64,000 nt of DNA from Escherichia coli (GTDB lineage: Bacteria > Pseudomonadota > Gammaproteobacteria > Enterobacterales > Enterobacteriaceae): assembly GCF_003790525.1 (NCBI RefSeq), contig NZ_CP033635.1; one strand, 5' to 3'. Each line of letters opens with the position of its first letter. Position 1 is the first letter of the stretch. A program made the translations under genes and the position numbers. Below are positions 29,859-39,054 of the stretch, one piece after another. The notes beneath the pieces were generated by a model. That model searched no databases and was not told the DNA's origin. It worked only from the letters and a program-made list of their open reading frames with translations.

Positions 29859-30914
29859 CTATATAAATAAACCTAAAGAAGCCACACCTTCTTGGGGTAG
29901 ACGCTGGTGGATCGCCAGAAGAGTCTTCATTTCTCGTAAAACAAACTTTGGCATCCAGCCACACTGTAACTCGAAATCAAACCGTTCGTTGTTGGCGTTC
30001 CCTTCCGCTGTCATCAGGCCATTTAAGATCAGTTTATTATAAAGCCATTCATCTAAATGCAAGCTGATACCGTAATCATTAAGCAACTTACAACGCAACT
30101 GATGAGCGATTTTTAAGCCCGCAACATCCAGATCGCCAAAATAAAGTAGTTGTTCTACCTGTTCGACCTCAAGGAGTTGTGACACGCATTCCGCCTGACC
30201 GGAAACTTTGTTACCTGCGCCATAAATGACCAGTGACCAGCGAGTCTGTGCTCGATTAAGTTGGCATAGCCGATAATACACATCGGAGTTTTCAACAATG
30301 ATAGCCGGAAGATCATGGCAACGAGATGACTCATACGGTAAAGGCGGCGCACGTCGAAACGCGCCCATATCAGCCAAAGTCAGAGTGACATGCTTCCAGC
30401 CATCAGGTGGCAAGGAGTCCAGAGCTTTTTCGTCACCAAATATAAGCAGAGACCGCTCACGATGTCCAAGCAAGCCCGGGAATAGCGACTTGTCGCCCCC
30501 GGTTTGGCGAAAAAGATATGTATTCAACTGTTGTAAGCGTGCCTTGATTGGCTGGGTAAGTTGTCCTGTAATACGTCGGGCCAACCAGGGATGCCAGGCT
30601 ATTTCTGATGTTGTCTTCGTAGGAACGATGGCACCTTCGTAAACAAAAGTACTTGGCAGGCTCATACCCCGCCAGTAGCGCTGCCAACTCGCTTTGTGCT
30701 TAGGCTGAGCCCGCCAGTCCCTCTCAAGCAGTTGTGTAACAGCCTGACTCAGCAAATCAGGCACCTCCTGGCTCAAGGCCTCCTGGTTGTGTGCGCGTAA
30801 TACCTCATCCAGCACCGCATTAGCTTTCACTGTACGCGCGGCCTTACCAGCGGCAAGACGATGTTTATTGGCTGTCGACTCCAGTCGGGATAGCCAGATC
30901 ATTACGCTACTCAT
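29859..30914 (-). CDS. jetD: JetD-like (Wadjet, Toprim/topoisomerase VI-like)
   Basis: 351 aa ORF with Toprim-like acidic motif YFGDLDVAGL. Lies 12 nt downstream of the jetC 3' fragment. Confidence 0.55.
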   Translation of the reverse strand: MSSVMIWLSRLESTANKHRLAAGKAARTVKANAVLDEVLRAHNQEALSQEVPDLLSQAVTQLLERDWRAQPKHKASWQRYWRGMSLPSTFVYEGAIVPTKTTSEIAWHPWLARRITGQLTQPIKARLQQLNTYLFRQTGGDKSLFPGLLGHRERSLLIFGDEKALDSLPPDGWKHVTLTLADMGAFRRAPPLPYESSRCHDLPAIIVENSDVYYRLCQLNRAQTRWSLVIYGAGNKVSGQAECVSQLLEVEQVEQLLYFGDLDVAGLKIAHQLRCKLLNDYGISLHLDEWLYNKLILNGLMTAEGNANNERFDFELQCGWMPKFVLREMKTLLAIHQRLPQEGVASLGLFI

Positions 30915-30926
30915 CTCATATCAACC

Positions 30927-31299
30927 TTAAATGACTGGATCGAACTGTGGCTTAGCAGCCAGAGAAGCCGCCCACAGGGCATGGCGTTCTTTATCAACGG
31001 TTACCAAATCGCGCCGCCTCAGTTTTTGAACTTTATTCAGGAAGAGATGGTTATCAAACATTGATTGGGCGTTTTCATCCGAAATACCAGTCAGGTAGAT
31101 GAGCTGGATTTTATAGGCTTTGGCCATTTGGGTTTGAATGCGCATTAGATCATTGGCATTCGATTTACCCAGCGGGTTATCGGCTAACAAGAATCCTGCA
31201 CTTGAAATACCCGTATCGTACTCTCGTACTTTACCAACCGTCACAAACAGTAAAAAGGCAGATGTAAGGCGCTGTCCACCCGAACCTTCAAGTCGGGTG
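30927..31299 (-). pseudogene. jetC: jetC 3' fragment (SMC-like C-terminal ATPase lobe) separated from the body of jetC by an IS insertion
   Basis: Same reading frame as the jetC 5' part. Translation across the target duplication gives ...TRLEGSGGQRLTSAFLL... (ABC/SMC signature-like SGGQ) continuing to the stop at 30927. Confidence 0.55.
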
Positions 31300-36688: not shown

Positions 36689-37585
36689 TTAAATCTCCGT
36701 CAAGCGTTGCGTTTCTGTGGTTCCAGTTGTAACTGGACGTTCATTGAGCGAAGGAAACTCCAGGGTATCTGCTAATGCTGCAAGATCGCTTTCAGCTAAA
36801 TCGGGCGACCGTTCTTCTACGGCTGGACTGATGCTCATGACAAAGCGCACCGTCTCTTCGATGCCAGTATGGCGCAGATAATGTTTGAGTTTTTGGGTCG
36901 GATACCAGTCGGACTCTCCCGACAGACTGCTGTCTTCGGCCAGAAAGCCTTCCTCCTGCAGCAGTTGTATCCAGCGCGTTGCCATTTCTGTTTGCGAGCG
37001 AATACTTGAGACACGCCCTACCTTTTCGTCGTGTATACGGGGAATACGTTCTTCCTGCACAAACCTGGCCGCCATAAGTAGGCCATCTACGGTATCGTCA
37101 CCCTCGGCCTTGCGCTGGGCAATCACCTGGTCGGCAACATTATTGAGCCTGGCTACCACCGAGGCGGCATTAATGGCGTTACTCTGACCGAACTCGACAC
37201 GAACGGTGTCTGGAGTTGGAAACAAATCAGCCAGCAACGCAATCAGAGTTAAGCCTGCAAACAGGCGCTGTTCTTTCCGTTCCTTACCCTGTTGCTCAGC
37301 CATTGTTTCAGGTAGCAAGCGTTTGTTCAGCCAACCCAAAGATGGGGAAAACGGACCTCGGCCATCTGCAGCCAGTAATACCCCGTAGGTCTCATGAATC
37401 CCAAGATACCGCAATTTCATACCTGTCGCGACGCCACGGATAATCTCTGTGAACAGGGCATCACCTTGCAGATCAAGAGCACGTTGAATCAGCTCATCCC
37501 CCATTTTATATCCCAGTGAATTCATAATTGCCTGCGTGGCAATCTCGGCGTAGCGTTTAGTTTGTTGATGCGCGTTGTCGTACAT
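36689..37585 (-). CDS. jetB: JetB-like (Wadjet, MksE-like)
   Basis: 298 aa ORF tightly coupled between the jetA-like and jetC-like genes. Assigned by size and operon position only. Confidence 0.45.
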   Translation of the reverse strand: MYDNAHQQTKRYAEIATQAIMNSLGYKMGDELIQRALDLQGDALFTEIIRGVATGMKLRYLGIHETYGVLLAADGRGPFSPSLGWLNKRLLPETMAEQQGKERKEQRLFAGLTLIALLADLFPTPDTVRVEFGQSNAINAASVVARLNNVADQVIAQRKAEGDDTVDGLLMAARFVQEERIPRIHDEKVGRVSSIRSQTEMATRWIQLLQEEGFLAEDSSLSGESDWYPTQKLKHYLRHTGIEETVRFVMSISPAVEERSPDLAESDLAALADTLEFPSLNERPVTTGTTETQRLTEI

Positions 37586-37587
37586 AA

Positions 37588-39054
37588 CTACTCCTCAAAG
37601 GGGTATAAGGGAGCAACCGTTAACAGTTTGATATTGTTAGCCCGCCAGAGCGTTGTTTCGATAGCGCCGTCTATCTCCACTTCTATTGCGGGATCGCTGT
37701 TAGCTGCCAGGCTGCCAATATGGAGTAAACAAACCTGTTGCTCTTGTTCGGATAATTCTTCGCCCTCATAGGCGTCAAAAACATCTCTAAAGCTCACATG
37801 CCCCCAATTCTTCAATCGGTCACTAACCCAATCGCTGCATTTTTTAATGACAGATTCAGGGATACCTCGCAGGTTGGTTTCAATAGCTACAGGCTGATCG
37901 GTGAGGTCCTGTATCTCATGTGGAAGCGCCTGTTCAAATCTATCGAGATAAAGGTTCAGCAGCGCCTCAAGGTCAAACAGAATGTGCCGATCATCATCCT
38001 GTCTTCGGGGAGCCAACAGGCGTGCGGTGAGATCATCGATTTCCTTTTCGACAGTGTCGGGGGAATGAGACAGCAAGGGCTTGAGTGCACCTTTTTCCAG
38101 TGTTTCCCGAAAGAGGGTATTATCTCTGGGAATAATGAGTTTCAGACGAGCTCGCTCAAAATCTTTGTTAACATCAAGTAAGCAGTCTTGATAGCGCTGC
38201 GTAAAAGCGCAGACCTCAGCAAAAATCTCCTGTGCCCTACGTAGCTTATTTAATTTGTCGGGATTTATTTTCGAACTTCCTTCAACCAGCATTTCGGTAA
38301 TGGCCGACATTGAGTTCTGGATATGTTCCAAAACCTCTCGGGTTTTATCAAAGGAATCATTGAGTACGGGACGGATATCGTGTGCATAAGATGCACTCAA
38401 ATCACCAGACTGGGCGGCACGCACTTTCATCCGCATTCCAATCAGATATTGCTCCAGTTGCCGCTGTGTTGATTGGATCTGGTGTACTGCCTTGTCGATC
38501 TCTCCGCGACGGATGGTTTTAAGCGTGCGCCAGGCCAGAATCGCAGCGCGTTCTATCGGCGTTTCATCCAAGCGCAGGGTATAGAACAACATTCCTTCAT
38601 CAGTCAGCGACCAGAGAATATCATCTGAGCCGGATAGCTGGTCATAGCGTACCAGACGGACTATCTGCTCTTCGGAATGCGTTCGTTGCGAGAAATCATA
38701 ATAACGGAGGCGGAAAGGATCTTTGATCGCCGCAAAAATCTTGCTGGCCACTTGTGCGTAGTCGGGTTCTTCTTGTCCCGGATAGGCTTCATTGAGGTGC
38801 CCAACCAGACATAACTCCGCTTCCTTACGCGTCATTCCAGGCTGGCGCTCGCGGTCAGCATAATAAAGCATGGCGTCAAAGAGATACATGATTGCCGCCA
38901 GCGCATCAAGCTCAACACCATCGAACGGATTTCGCTGAAGGGCGCTATATATTGAATCCAGCGTCCGCACGACCAGTAAGGCGTGAGACTGAATAGACAG
39001 CTCACGACGTGCCATTGATTCATTACGAGCCTGCTCCAAAAACCCTAGCGACAT
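37588..39054 (-). CDS. jetA: JetA-like (Wadjet, kleisin/MksF-like)
   Basis: 488 aa first gene of the four-gene operon, stop 2 nt before the jetB-like start. Assigned by size and operon position only. Confidence 0.45.
   Translation of the reverse strand: MSLGFLEQARNESMARRELSIQSHALLVVRTLDSIYSALQRNPFDGVELDALAAIMYLFDAMLYYADRERQPGMTRKEAELCLVGHLNEAYPGQEEPDYAQVASKIFAAIKDPFRLRYYDFSQRTHSEEQIVRLVRYDQLSGSDDILWSLTDEGMLFYTLRLDETPIERAAILAWRTLKTIRRGEIDKAVHQIQSTQRQLEQYLIGMRMKVRAAQSGDLSASYAHDIRPVLNDSFDKTREVLEHIQNSMSAITEMLVEGSSKINPDKLNKLRRAQEIFAEVCAFTQRYQDCLLDVNKDFERARLKLIIPRDNTLFRETLEKGALKPLLSHSPDTVEKEIDDLTARLLAPRRQDDDRHILFDLEALLNLYLDRFEQALPHEIQDLTDQPVAIETNLRGIPESVIKKCSDWVSDRLKNWGHVSFRDVFDAYEGEELSEQEQQVCLLHIGSLAANSDPAIEVEIDGAIETTLWRANNIKLLTVAPLYPFEE

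What the first reader, a model, noticed from the sequence alone, without database searches (positions are those of the whole stretch)
29859..39054. Wadjet-like jetABCD operon inactivated by an IS insertion in jetC
Seen in sequence: four co-oriented genes with coupled junctions. They encode a 488 aa protein, a 298 aa protein, an SMC-like ATPase (NGGGKSTY plus long coiled coils) and a Toprim-motif protein (YFGDLDVAGL). The SMC-like gene is interrupted 127 codons before its stop by an IS256-family element; its C-terminal signature region (LEGSGGQR...) lies in frame on the far side. Established knowledge: Wadjet (JetABCD/MksBEFG-like) restricts plasmids. Inference: the system is currently non-functional but was disrupted recently, since the reading frame is otherwise intact.
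Basis: partly seen in the sequence, partly recalled or inferred. Interest (0 to 1): 0.7.

Follow-up and report, generated by a model that had tools for sequence, protein, structure and literature searches.

The report
Wadjet III operon broken by IS1414
An E. coli anti-plasmid defence operon (type III Wadjet, jetABCD) has very recently been knocked out by a mobile element (IS1414) landing in its motor gene; this is an ordinary kind of event, though the same operon turns out to be broken in many different ways in other E. coli strains.

Summary
On the minus strand of 29859-39054 lie jetA (488 aa), a jetB-position gene (298 aa), jetC and jetD (347 aa from the likely start). PADLOC classes them as type III Wadjet: JetA3, JetC3 and JetD3 match over their full length. 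jetC is split by a complete 1,315-bp IS1414 (IS256 family, 31300-32614) flanked by a perfect 8-bp target duplication (CACCCGAC). Removing the IS and one duplicate restores a 1,478-aa ORF. The flanks are 100% identical to E. coli SMS-3-5, where the operon is intact. The empty site occurs in 89 of 5,426 complete E. coli genomes, and this IS junction in none. The insertion is therefore real and recent, and it very probably abolishes function, because the signature and Walker B motifs cannot be translated with the rest of JetC. The system is already known and catalogued. Additional finding: about half of the 94 carrier genomes have a defective copy. These result from at least 11 independent IS events plus deletions and frameshifts. 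The IS rate is roughly four times that of the adjacent defence genes. Interest is modest.

The parts
37588..39054 (-). jetA (type III; kleisin-position subunit), 488 aa, intact
   Evidence: PADLOC JetA3 PDLC00564 scores 1136 bits over 1-488 of 488. There is no Pfam hit. The sequence is 100% identical to the SMS-3-5 allele.
36689..37585 (-). jetB-position gene (putative KITE subunit), 298 aa, intact
   Evidence: There is no PADLOC, Pfam or PDB sequence hit. It aligns at 15-34% identity over its full length with the B-position genes of ten distant JetC3 loci; of the four tested, three weakly hit PADLOC JetB3 models (E 0.001-0.006). The AF2 model (pLDDT 68) shows two winged-helix modules. The top Foldseek hits are MukE 3euh_C (E 0.07) and E. 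coli JetB 8as8_C (E 0.12).
32623..36686 (-). jetC 5' fragment: codons 1-1357 (first base of codon 1358 lies in the 8-bp repeat), with Walker A (GGGKST, 61-66) and the long coiled-coil region. As it stands it reads into the IS and stops after RACT (ORF 32601-36686).
   Evidence: Identical proteins are annotated 'coiled-coil domain-containing protein' in RefSeq.
32615..32622 (.). Target-site duplication copy 1 (CACCCGAC on the minus strand)
31300..32614 (-). IS1414 (IS256 family), 1,315 bp, complete, in the same orientation as the operon. The transposase is at 31334-32542. The terminal inverted repeats match at 8 of the first 8 positions and are imperfect beyond that.
   Evidence: NCBIfam NF033543 scores 430 bits against a cut-off of 150. 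The element is 100% identical over 1,315 bp to annotated IS1414 copies on E. coli plasmids. Inverted repeats. There is only one copy in the window.
31711..31827 (-). astA (EAST1 heat-stable enterotoxin, 38 aa), embedded out of frame in the IS1414 transposase gene
   Evidence: ORF MPSTQYIRRPASSYASCIWCATACASCHGRTTRPSLAT. Identical IS copies are annotated 'astA: heat-stable enterotoxin EAST1'. Background in PMC12585946.
31292..31299 (.). Target-site duplication copy 2 (CACCCGAC)
30927..31299 (-). jetC 3' fragment: codons 1358-1478, with the signature motif (S1361-G-G-Q) and the Walker B-like motif (LLAD1395-N-P). It is now untranslatable as part of JetC. There is an in-frame TAA just inside the IS end, and the first possible start (GTG, 31244) lies downstream of the signature motif.
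29859..30902 (-). jetD (type III; Toprim nuclease subunit), 347 aa, intact
   Evidence: PADLOC JetD3 PDLC00593 scores 807 bits. Pfam JetD_C matches at 5.3e-9. Toprim E204 and D257-x-D259 are invariant in 10 family members.
39100..39126 (.). Perfect 12+3+12 palindrome (AATTAAGCAAAG aaa CTTTGCTTAATT) in the jetA / WYL-gene intergenic region. It is a candidate operator (inference only).
39230..40123 (+). Divergent WYL-domain (BrxR-like) regulator gene, possibly the regulator of the operon (inference)
   Evidence: Pfam WYL matches at 1.4e-6. RefSeq names identical or allelic proteins 'WYL domain-containing' or 'BrxR family HTH regulator'. BrxR/WCX genes also lie next to jetA in the distant loci L023 and L020.

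Best explanation
This is a type III Wadjet (jetA-jetB-jetC-jetD) anti-plasmid operon. It sits in a defence island beside tRNA-Leu (leuX) on an E. coli chromosome.

By analogy with the characterised type I and II systems, JetA (kleisin), JetB (KITE) and JetC (SMC-like ATPase) would form a DNA loop-extruding sensor that recognises small circular DNA. JetD (Toprim nuclease) would then cut that DNA.

In this strain an intact IS1414 has transposed into jetC after codon 1357, making an 8-bp target duplication.
- The insertion separates the Walker A motif, the coiled coils and most of the head from the signature and Walker B motifs.
- The upstream fragment ends four codons into the IS.
- The downstream fragment has no start codon ahead of the signature motif.
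- No ATPase-competent JetC can therefore be made, and the system should be inactive.

The event is very recent. It would be reversed exactly by loss of the IS plus one repeat copy.

What is shown: the gene identities, the IS anatomy, the exact restoration of the ORF, identity to an intact allele, and the rarity of this junction. What is inferred: loss of plasmid restriction, and the loop-extrusion/cleavage mechanism for type III.
For: Gene order and sizes.

Family assignment: PADLOC JetA3, JetC3 and JetD3 match over their full length. Secondary hits to other JetC3 models reach E 8e-64, 8e-40 and 4e-24. Pfam finds JetD_C.

Catalytic residues: Toprim E204 and D257-x-D259 are invariant. The SGG[EQ] signature and Walker B Asp are conserved in 103 family representatives.

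Synteny: the A-B-C-D order is kept in 9 of 10 distant JetC3 loci.

IS anatomy: 1,315 bp, inverted repeats, 8-bp duplication, and a restored 1,478-aa ORF equal in length to the PADLOC model.

Comparison with the intact allele: window 19100-31299 and 32615-41647 match the intact SMS-3-5 locus at 100% and 99.99%, and the two alignments overlap by exactly the 8-bp repeat.

Distribution: the empty site is in 89 of 5,426 genomes and the filled junction in 0.

Function of the family:
- Wadjet genes placed in B. subtilis lower transformation efficiency.
- Spontaneous loss of the SMC subunit makes M. smegmatis mc2155 transformable (PMC10123090).
- Deleting jetABCD raises conjugation into C. cellulovorans (PMC12287153).
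- Type II shares the extrusion-cleavage mechanism, and type III is expected to but is uncharacterised (bioRxiv 10.1101/2025.03.10.642339).
Against: - No experiment or read-level data are available here.
- Loss of function is inferred from motif positions.
- Type III Wadjet has not been studied biochemically.
- JetC3 finds nothing in Pfam (residues 1-1200) or in the PDB, whether searched by sequence or by profile. Its SMC nature therefore rests on PADLOC models, motifs and operon context.
- The Walker B is non-canonical (D-N-P, with no catalytic Glu) across the whole family.
- The jetB-position protein has no HMM support and only a weak fold match.
- jetD may still be transcribed from the operon or the IS. 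A residual JetD activity cannot be excluded.
Confidence: 0.9

Rival explanations
1. The IS in jetC is an assembly artefact: a repeat-induced misjoin places an IS1414 copy where none exists.
For: IS1414 is multi-copy in many E. coli genomes, with up to 21 places per record. No other complete genome has this junction.
Against: The element is complete and sits between perfect 8-bp direct repeats of a sequence that occurs once at the empty site. The two flanks abut exactly in 89 genomes. A misassembly would not create a target duplication.
Confidence: 0.03
2. The system keeps some activity despite the insertion. Examples would be JetD expressed from read-through or an IS-borne promoter acting alone, or the two JetC fragments reassembling.
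For: jetA, jetB and jetD are intact. The IS has the same orientation as the operon, so read-through into jetD is plausible. A naturally split mksB is mentioned for P. putida KT2440 (PMC10123090).
Against: Residues 1358-1373, including the signature motif S1361-G-G-Q, lie between an in-frame TAA inside the IS end and the first available start codon (GTG at 31244). They cannot be part of either fragment. In the characterised type I systems, JetD needs JetABC to be licensed (bioRxiv 10.1101/2025.03.10.642339).
Confidence: 0.05
3. The repeated breakage of this operon across E. coli is neutral decay of an island gene in IS-rich genomes. On this view it is not selection for loss of plasmid restriction, and the insertion here has no adaptive meaning.
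For: - IS elements also hit the neighbouring defence genes: 3 of 39 genomes in the adjacent 10.6 kb and 1 in a sample of 60 for Druantia III.
- The excess is only about fourfold. My binomial estimate for 8 against 3 events is p about 0.04.
- Genomes are not phylogenetically independent.
- Some single-base frameshifts may be sequencing errors.
Against: - At least 11 independent IS events, at different positions and from five IS types, occur in 7.9 kb among 94 genomes plus this window.
- There are also several deletions and frameshifts.
- Only 64 of 94 carriers retain at least 80% of the operon, against 505 of 545 for Druantia III.
- Loss of Wadjet is known to be selected when plasmids are advantageous.
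Confidence: 0.4
4. The operon is not an anti-plasmid Wadjet but another SMC-like system with a different target, for example phage defence or chromosome handling.
For: The JetC3 head is too divergent to hit any solved SMC, its Walker B lacks the catalytic Glu, and this E. coli system has never been tested. One distant relative, L017, has A-B-C without JetD.
Against: PADLOC classifies three of the four proteins as type III Wadjet. JetD carries the JetD_C Toprim domain. The locus sits among Druantia III, Zorya II and restriction genes. According to my recollection of Doron et al. 2018, a type III system reduced plasmid transformation; this was not verified here for type III specifically.
Confidence: 0.07

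Closest known systems
Type III Wadjet (JetABCD; PADLOC JetA3/JetB3/JetC3/JetD3), as first defined by Doron et al. 2018
   Same: It has the four-gene A-B-C-D order. JetA3, JetC3 and JetD3 HMMs match over their full length, and the best models have exactly the lengths of these proteins. JetD has the JetD_C Toprim domain. JetC is about 1,450-1,480 aa, as in the rest of the family.
   Different: The jetB-position protein is not recognised by any PADLOC JetB3 model. In this strain jetC is interrupted.
Type I Wadjet / JET nuclease of E. coli GF4-3 and MksBEFG of C. glutamicum (structurally and biochemically characterised)
   Same: It has the same four roles in the same gene order, and a Toprim nuclease as the fourth gene. 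The KITE-like B protein has MukE (3euh) and JetB (8as8_C) as its best fold matches.
   Different: There is no detectable sequence similarity between JetC3, JetB3 or JetD3 and the solved type I chains. JetC is about 350 aa longer than my recollection of type I JetC. The Walker B is D-N-P instead of D-E. The mechanism is inferred, not shown.
Spontaneous Wadjet loss in laboratory strains: the M. smegmatis mc2155 eptC mutation and the C. cellulovorans jetABCD deletion
   Same: These are natural inactivations of the SMC subunit or the whole operon, with the expected consequence of easier plasmid acquisition.
   Different: Here the lesion is an IS1414 insertion in a wild E. coli lineage. No phenotype has been measured.
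IS1414 (IS256 family), carrier of astA/EAST1
   Same: It is 100% identical over 1,315 bp to annotated IS1414 copies. The transposase is intact and astA is embedded. Intact IS1414 is reported to be actively amplifying in E. coli (PMC12585946).
   Different: Nothing differs. This is an ordinary copy at a new site.

Membership tests
Wadjet type III | Co-oriented four-gene operon in the order jetA-jetB-jetC-jetD | tested here: met
   Searches show the order. The same order and sizes (A 484-524 aa, B 224-290, C 1438-1476, D 330-378) occur in 9 of 10 distant JetC3 loci.
Wadjet type III | JetC: match to JetC3 profile; N-terminal Walker A, long coiled coil, C-terminal signature and Walker B | tested here: met
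   PDLC00587 scores 3377 bits over 1-1478 of 1478, and other JetC3 models reach E 8e-64 to 4e-24. GGGKST lies at 61-66, and SGGQ 1361-1364 and LLAD-N-P 1392-1397 are conserved family-wide. The coiled coil was not computed here; RefSeq labels the identical protein 'coiled-coil domain-containing'.
Wadjet type III | JetC head recognisably related to SMC/MukB/Rad50-type ABC ATPases of known structure, with a canonical Walker B D-E | tested here: not met
   phmmer of the whole protein and hmmsearch with a 20-sequence C-terminal profile find no SMC-like chain in the PDB. Pfam finds nothing in residues 1-1200. The residue after the Walker B Asp is Asn in 103 of 103 family representatives. This holds for the whole JetC3 family, not only this copy. 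No structure model was possible because of the 1,200-aa limit.
Wadjet type III | JetD: Toprim nuclease (JetD_C) with catalytic Glu and DxD | tested here: met
   PADLOC JetD3 scores 807 bits. Pfam PF09983 matches at 5.3e-9. E204-N205 and G256-D257-x-D259 are invariant in 10 sequences at 23-38% identity.
Wadjet type III | JetA: kleisin-position subunit matching JetA3 profiles | tested here: met
   PDLC00564 scores 1136 bits and PDLC00569 reaches 4e-7. The A genes of the distant loci hit the same models. The kleisin fold itself was not tested.
Wadjet type III | JetB: KITE subunit (tandem winged-helix protein) | tested here: inconclusive
Wadjet type III | Restricts plasmids (reduces transformation or conjugation) | not testable with these tools
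   This is known for Wadjet in general. It has never been measured for this E. coli operon as far as my searches show.
IS1414 / IS256 family | IS256-family DDE transposase | tested here: met
   NF033543 scores 430 bits against a cut-off of 150.
IS1414 / IS256 family | Terminal inverted repeats and an 8-9 bp target duplication (family property recalled from ISfinder) | tested here: met
   Inverted repeats GAGCCTGT...TGTGTAA are present at both ends. The 8-bp CACCCGAC is duplicated.
IS1414 / IS256 family | Near-identity to the named element, with astA embedded in the transposase gene | tested here: met
   It is 100% identical over 1,315 bp to records annotated 'IS256-like element IS1414 family transposase | astA'. 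The 38-aa EAST1 ORF lies at 31711-31827.

The most novel reading that the evidence does not exclude
The type III Wadjet operon of E. coli is under recurrent selection for loss. Lineages repeatedly switch it off, mostly by IS insertion, and so open themselves to plasmids. Plasmid-borne IS elements such as IS1414 would then act in effect as anti-defence agents. The strain in this window and SMS-3-5 would form a natural near-isogenic on/off pair for the still uncharacterised type III system, whose motor has an invariant D-N-P Walker B instead of D-E.
Probability: 0.25. Interest if true: 0.6.

Novelty: already known. Interest (0 to 1): 0.3.

Why it matters
On its own this is a routine pseudogenisation. 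For anyone predicting the defence repertoire or plasmid permissiveness of this strain, it means the Wadjet locus should be scored as inactive.

The wider pattern has more value.
- A plasmid-restriction system that is defective in roughly half of its E. coli carriers bears on how resistance and virulence plasmids spread.
- The many natural alleles (intact, IS-split, truncated) on nearly identical backgrounds offer ready-made material for the first functional tests of a type III Wadjet.

Tried and rejected
- **NCBIfam:** no hits for the four Jet proteins.
- **Pfam:** no hits for JetA, JetB or JetC residues 1-1200. The 1,478-aa JetC was too long for Pfam as a whole.
- **PDB sequence searches:** JetC, JetB and JetD as single sequences, and JetB and the JetC C-terminus as profiles, found nothing relevant.
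- **First AF2 model of JetB:** 16 close homologues gave pLDDT 41, which is unusable. It was replaced by a model from an alignment that adds B genes taken from distant JetC3 loci.
- **Word-indexed homologue search with that profile:** added almost no new JetB relatives.
- **Promoter and terminator scan of the operon:** no more sites than in shuffled sequence. Nothing can be said about polarity on jetD.
- **IS excision footprints:** I considered that the frameshifts near jetC codon 904-933 in CM2 and 98203 might be footprints of the IS3-family element seen at codon 904 in HS4 and TUM12368. The indels lie 20-90 bp away, and one is within a CT repeat, so I rejected this.
- **Operator conservation:** I looked for the window's palindrome next to BrxR in L023 and L020. 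There was no counterpart.
- **Literature:** I found no report of this E. coli operon or of IS-mediated Wadjet loss in E. coli.

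
Full report
**1. The observation**

The ORF list shows a run of co-oriented genes on the minus strand between 29859 and 39054:
- a 488-aa gene at 37588-39054;
- a 298-aa gene at 36689-37585;
- a 1361-aa ORF at 32601-36686;
- a 402-aa ORF at 31334-32542;
- a 105-aa ORF at 30927-31244;
- a 351-aa ORF at 29859-30914.

The spacers are 2 nt, 2 nt and 12-24 nt.

Reading the minus strand across the 402-aa ORF shows imperfect terminal inverted repeats beginning GAGCCTGT. The 8-bp sequence CACCCGAC lies directly outside both ends. 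A script placed the element at 31300-32614 (1,315 bp) with the repeats at 31292-31299 and 32615-32622.

Deleting the element plus one repeat copy gives a single 1,478-codon ORF. The break is after codon 1357, which is 121 codons before the stop.

**2. What the genes are**

PADLOC models match three of the proteins end to end:
- JetA3, 1136 bits, over 1-488 of 488;
- JetC3 on the restored protein, 3377 bits, over 1-1478 of 1478;
- JetD3, 807 bits.

Weaker full-length hits to other JetC3 models reach E 8e-64, 8e-40 and 4e-24. Weaker hits for JetD reach type I and II JetD models.

Pfam finds the JetD_C Toprim domain in JetD (5.3e-9). In an alignment with nine JetD proteins from distant loci (23-38% identity), the Toprim Glu (E204) and the DxD motif (D257, D259) are invariant.

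The transposase passes the NCBIfam IS256 equivalog model (430 bits against a cut-off of 150). The whole element is 100% identical over 1,315 bp to copies annotated as IS1414 with an embedded astA gene. The 38-aa EAST1 ORF lies at 31711-31827, out of frame within the transposase gene.

**3. The weakest component: the 298-aa 'JetB'**

This protein has no hit in PADLOC even at E 10, none in Pfam and none in the PDB. Its word-indexed homologues are all at least 71% identical and come from gammaproteobacteria.

I therefore took distant JetC3 relatives found by an exhaustive HMMER search with the JetC C-terminus. That search gave 796 hits at E up to 1e-3, mostly proteins of 1,430-1,490 aa. I then looked up their contigs.
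- Nine of ten loci have the same A-B-C-D arrangement, with B genes of 224-290 aa.
- These B proteins align with the window protein over its full length at 15-34% identity.
- Four were scanned against PADLOC; three of them weakly hit JetB3 models, at E 0.001-0.006.

With this more diverse alignment AlphaFold2 gave a usable model (mean pLDDT 68; 27 residues at 90 or above) with two helix-plus-hairpin modules. The first, shallow alignment had given pLDDT 41.

I read this as consistent with a KITE subunit, but not as proof.

**4. JetC**

JetC is itself very divergent. Pfam finds nothing in residues 1-1200. Neither the protein nor a C-terminal family profile hits any solved SMC-like chain.

I aligned the C-termini of 102 full-length family representatives with the query.
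- The signature motif S-G-G-[EQ] is conserved.
- The Walker B is h-h-h-h-D-N-P. The Asp and the following Asn are invariant (103 of 103) and the Pro nearly so.
- The canonical catalytic Glu is therefore missing in the whole type III family.

This does not affect the verdict on the finding. It is a point to keep in mind when the type I mechanism is transferred to type III.

**5. Is the insertion real and recent?**

A 400-bp sequence spanning the reconstructed empty site matches 89 of 5,426 complete E. coli genomes at 100% identity, always on the chromosome. A 300-bp probe across the actual IS/jetC junction is covered at 80% or more in none.

The annotated locus of E. coli SMS-3-5 carries an intact 4,437-bp jetC between the same neighbours.
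- Window 19100-31299 is 100% identical to that locus.
- Window 32615-41647 differs by one base, at 41642, outside the operon.
- The two alignments overlap by exactly the 8-bp repeat.

A complete IS, a perfect target duplication, an exact empty site elsewhere, zero divergence in the operon and an otherwise unseen junction together show a genuine, very recent transposition. They argue strongly against a misassembly.

**6. Consequence**

The upstream fragment keeps Walker A, the coiled coils and most of the C-terminal head, and then terminates after four IS-encoded codons. On the far side an in-frame TAA lies just inside the IS end. The first usable start (GTG at 31244) is downstream of the signature motif. 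Residues 1358-1373 therefore cannot be translated with either fragment.

Without the signature and Walker B motifs, an SMC-type head cannot form a hydrolysing dimer (established knowledge of ABC/SMC ATPases). The sensor should be dead and JetD unlicensed.

This step is an inference. The promoter and terminator scan is uninformative about jetD expression.

**7. Mechanism and literature**

- Wadjet reduces plasmid transformation when moved into B. subtilis. Loss of its SMC subunit explains the transformability of M. smegmatis mc2155 (PMC10123090).
- Deletion of jetABCD raises conjugation into C. cellulovorans (PMC12287153).
- Type I and type II complexes cleave circular DNA by an extrusion-cleavage reaction. 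Type III is expected to do the same but is described as largely uncharacterised (bioRxiv 10.1101/2025.03.10.642339).
- Intact IS1414 copies are reported to be actively amplifying in E. coli (PMC12585946).

**8. Context**

The operon lies in a dense defence island:
- a type IIG restriction-methylase/DrmMI-like gene and a DrmD-like helicase (4780-12563);
- Druantia III (12787-22460);
- Zorya II (22615-26145);
- HNH and type IV-like nucleases (26972-28622);
- a PDDEXK/PDC-S11 gene (28734-29732).

Downstream of these come the Wadjet operon, a divergent WYL/BrxR-like regulator gene (39230-40123), an integrase remnant, a P4-like element, and then tRNA-Leu(CAA) at 52979-53063.

**9. Beyond the finding: repeated breakage in other strains**

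A search with the intact SMS-3-5 operon finds it in 94 complete genomes, but only 64 keep at least 80% of it. I fetched seventeen of these loci and mapped the breakpoints.

Insertion-sequence events:

| Event | Position | Strains |
|---|---|---|
| IS3-family | jetC codon 564 | 702/18, CS5L |
| IS3-family | jetC codon 791 | E22 |
| IS3-family | jetC codon 904 | HS4 |
| IS3-family, 1 bp from the HS4 site, opposite orientation, different allele | jetC codon 904 | TUM12368 |
| IS3-family | jetD codon 100 | M172-1 |
| IS66-family | jetC codon 1029 | M160133 |
| ISCro1 | jetD codon 312 | HCM-24C-3 |
| IS100 | jetA codon 65 | JML285 |
| IS100 | jetA codon 49 | RM8082 |
| IS100-associated truncation | jetC codon 1234 | 201609 |

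Other lesions:
- A deletion removes jetA, jetB and the 5' part of jetC up to codon 402, with integrative-element genes abutting it. EC9 and at least eleven other genomes carry it.
- Shorter remnants exist.
- Frameshifts lie at jetC codons 933, 911, 790 and 62.
- jetB is split in strain A34.

Some single-base changes may be sequencing errors.

Counting this window, that makes at least 11 independent IS events in 7.9 kb. Roughly half of the carriers are defective.

Controls:
- The neighbouring 9.7-kb Druantia III pair is at least 80% complete in 505 of 545 genomes. One IS-split copy appears in a 60-row sample.
- The adjacent 10.6 kb of defence genes, in the same genomes, is IS-split in 3 of 39.

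This is about a fourfold excess per kb. My own binomial estimate for 8 against 3 events in the at-least-99%-identity group is p about 0.04. The result is suggestive only, because the genomes are not phylogenetically independent.

**10. Verdict**

The finding is real and correctly interpreted. The system is an already catalogued type III Wadjet, and an IS knock-out of a defence gene is ordinary, so novelty and interest are low. Two things could justify follow-up: the recurrent loss of this operon across E. coli, and the availability of near-isogenic intact and broken alleles of an uncharacterised Wadjet type.

Noticed in passing
window 31711-31827 (minus strand), inside IS1414: The IS carries an intact 38-aa astA (EAST1 heat-stable enterotoxin) ORF, out of frame within the transposase gene. 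The event that broke jetC therefore also added a toxin gene copy at this locus.
   Followed up: partly
JetC residues 1392-1397 (window about 31170-31190, minus strand) and 102 family representatives P0064-P0213: The whole JetC3 family has an invariant D-N-P after the hydrophobic Walker B strand (Asp and Asn in 103 of 103). It lacks the canonical catalytic Glu of SMC/ABC ATPases. The signature S-G-G-[EQ] is conserved. I found no mention of this in the papers read.
   Followed up: partly
L002-L013, L024-L028 (other E. coli genomes): The same operon is independently broken elsewhere by IS3-family, IS66-family, ISCro1 and IS100 insertions, by deletions and by frameshifts. Two IS3-family insertions lie 1 bp apart at jetC codon 904, in opposite orientations and in different alleles, which suggests a local target hotspot.
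   Followed up: yes
window 39100-39126 and 39230-40123: A perfect 12+3+12 palindrome lies between jetA and a divergent WYL/BrxR-like regulator gene. BrxR- or WCX-domain genes also sit just upstream of jetA in two distant type III loci (L023, L020). This suggests BrxR-type control of type III Wadjet.
   Followed up: partly
window 28734-29732 (minus strand): A PDDEXK nuclease gene (PADLOC candidate system PDC-S11, 375 bits) lies directly downstream of jetD. Genomes that have the island but lack Wadjet III lose homology just before this gene (coverage ends at 9539 of L001). The two may therefore travel as one cassette.
   Followed up: no
window 1-28622: The island is dense in defence genes: a type IIG RM/DrmMI-like gene plus a DrmD-like helicase (4780-12563), Druantia III DruE3/DruH3 (12787-22460), Zorya II (22615-26145), and HNH/type IV-like nucleases (26972-28622).
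   Followed up: partly
window 41648-52900 and 52979-53063: A roughly 11-kb segment is absent from the SMS-3-5 locus at this position. It starts with 60% GC and carries a P4-type primase (42180-44513) and an integrase (51562-52827) next to tRNA-Leu(CAA). It looks like a P4-like satellite at leuX. Window 61984-64000 matches the CP4-like genes of SMS-3-5 at only 91.7%.
   Followed up: no
hit H32, Salmonella enterica plasmid NZ_CP022662.1, 104206-111234: A 132.6-kb Salmonella plasmid carries a homologous four-gene operon (84.6% identity over 77% of the query). This is an anti-plasmid system residing on a plasmid.
   Followed up: no
L017 2814-9293: One distant JetC3 locus has jetA-jetB-jetC but no jetD; a ComFB-domain gene follows instead. 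It may be a nuclease-less, MksBEF-like relative of type III Wadjet.
   Followed up: no
jetC codon 62 (window about 36500, the G-run encoding the Walker A glycines): Two unrelated strains have opposite frameshifts (+1 in CLSC36, -1 in TUM12368) in the same G5 run that encodes GGG of the Walker A motif. This could be a mutational hotspot or homopolymer sequencing error.
   Followed up: no
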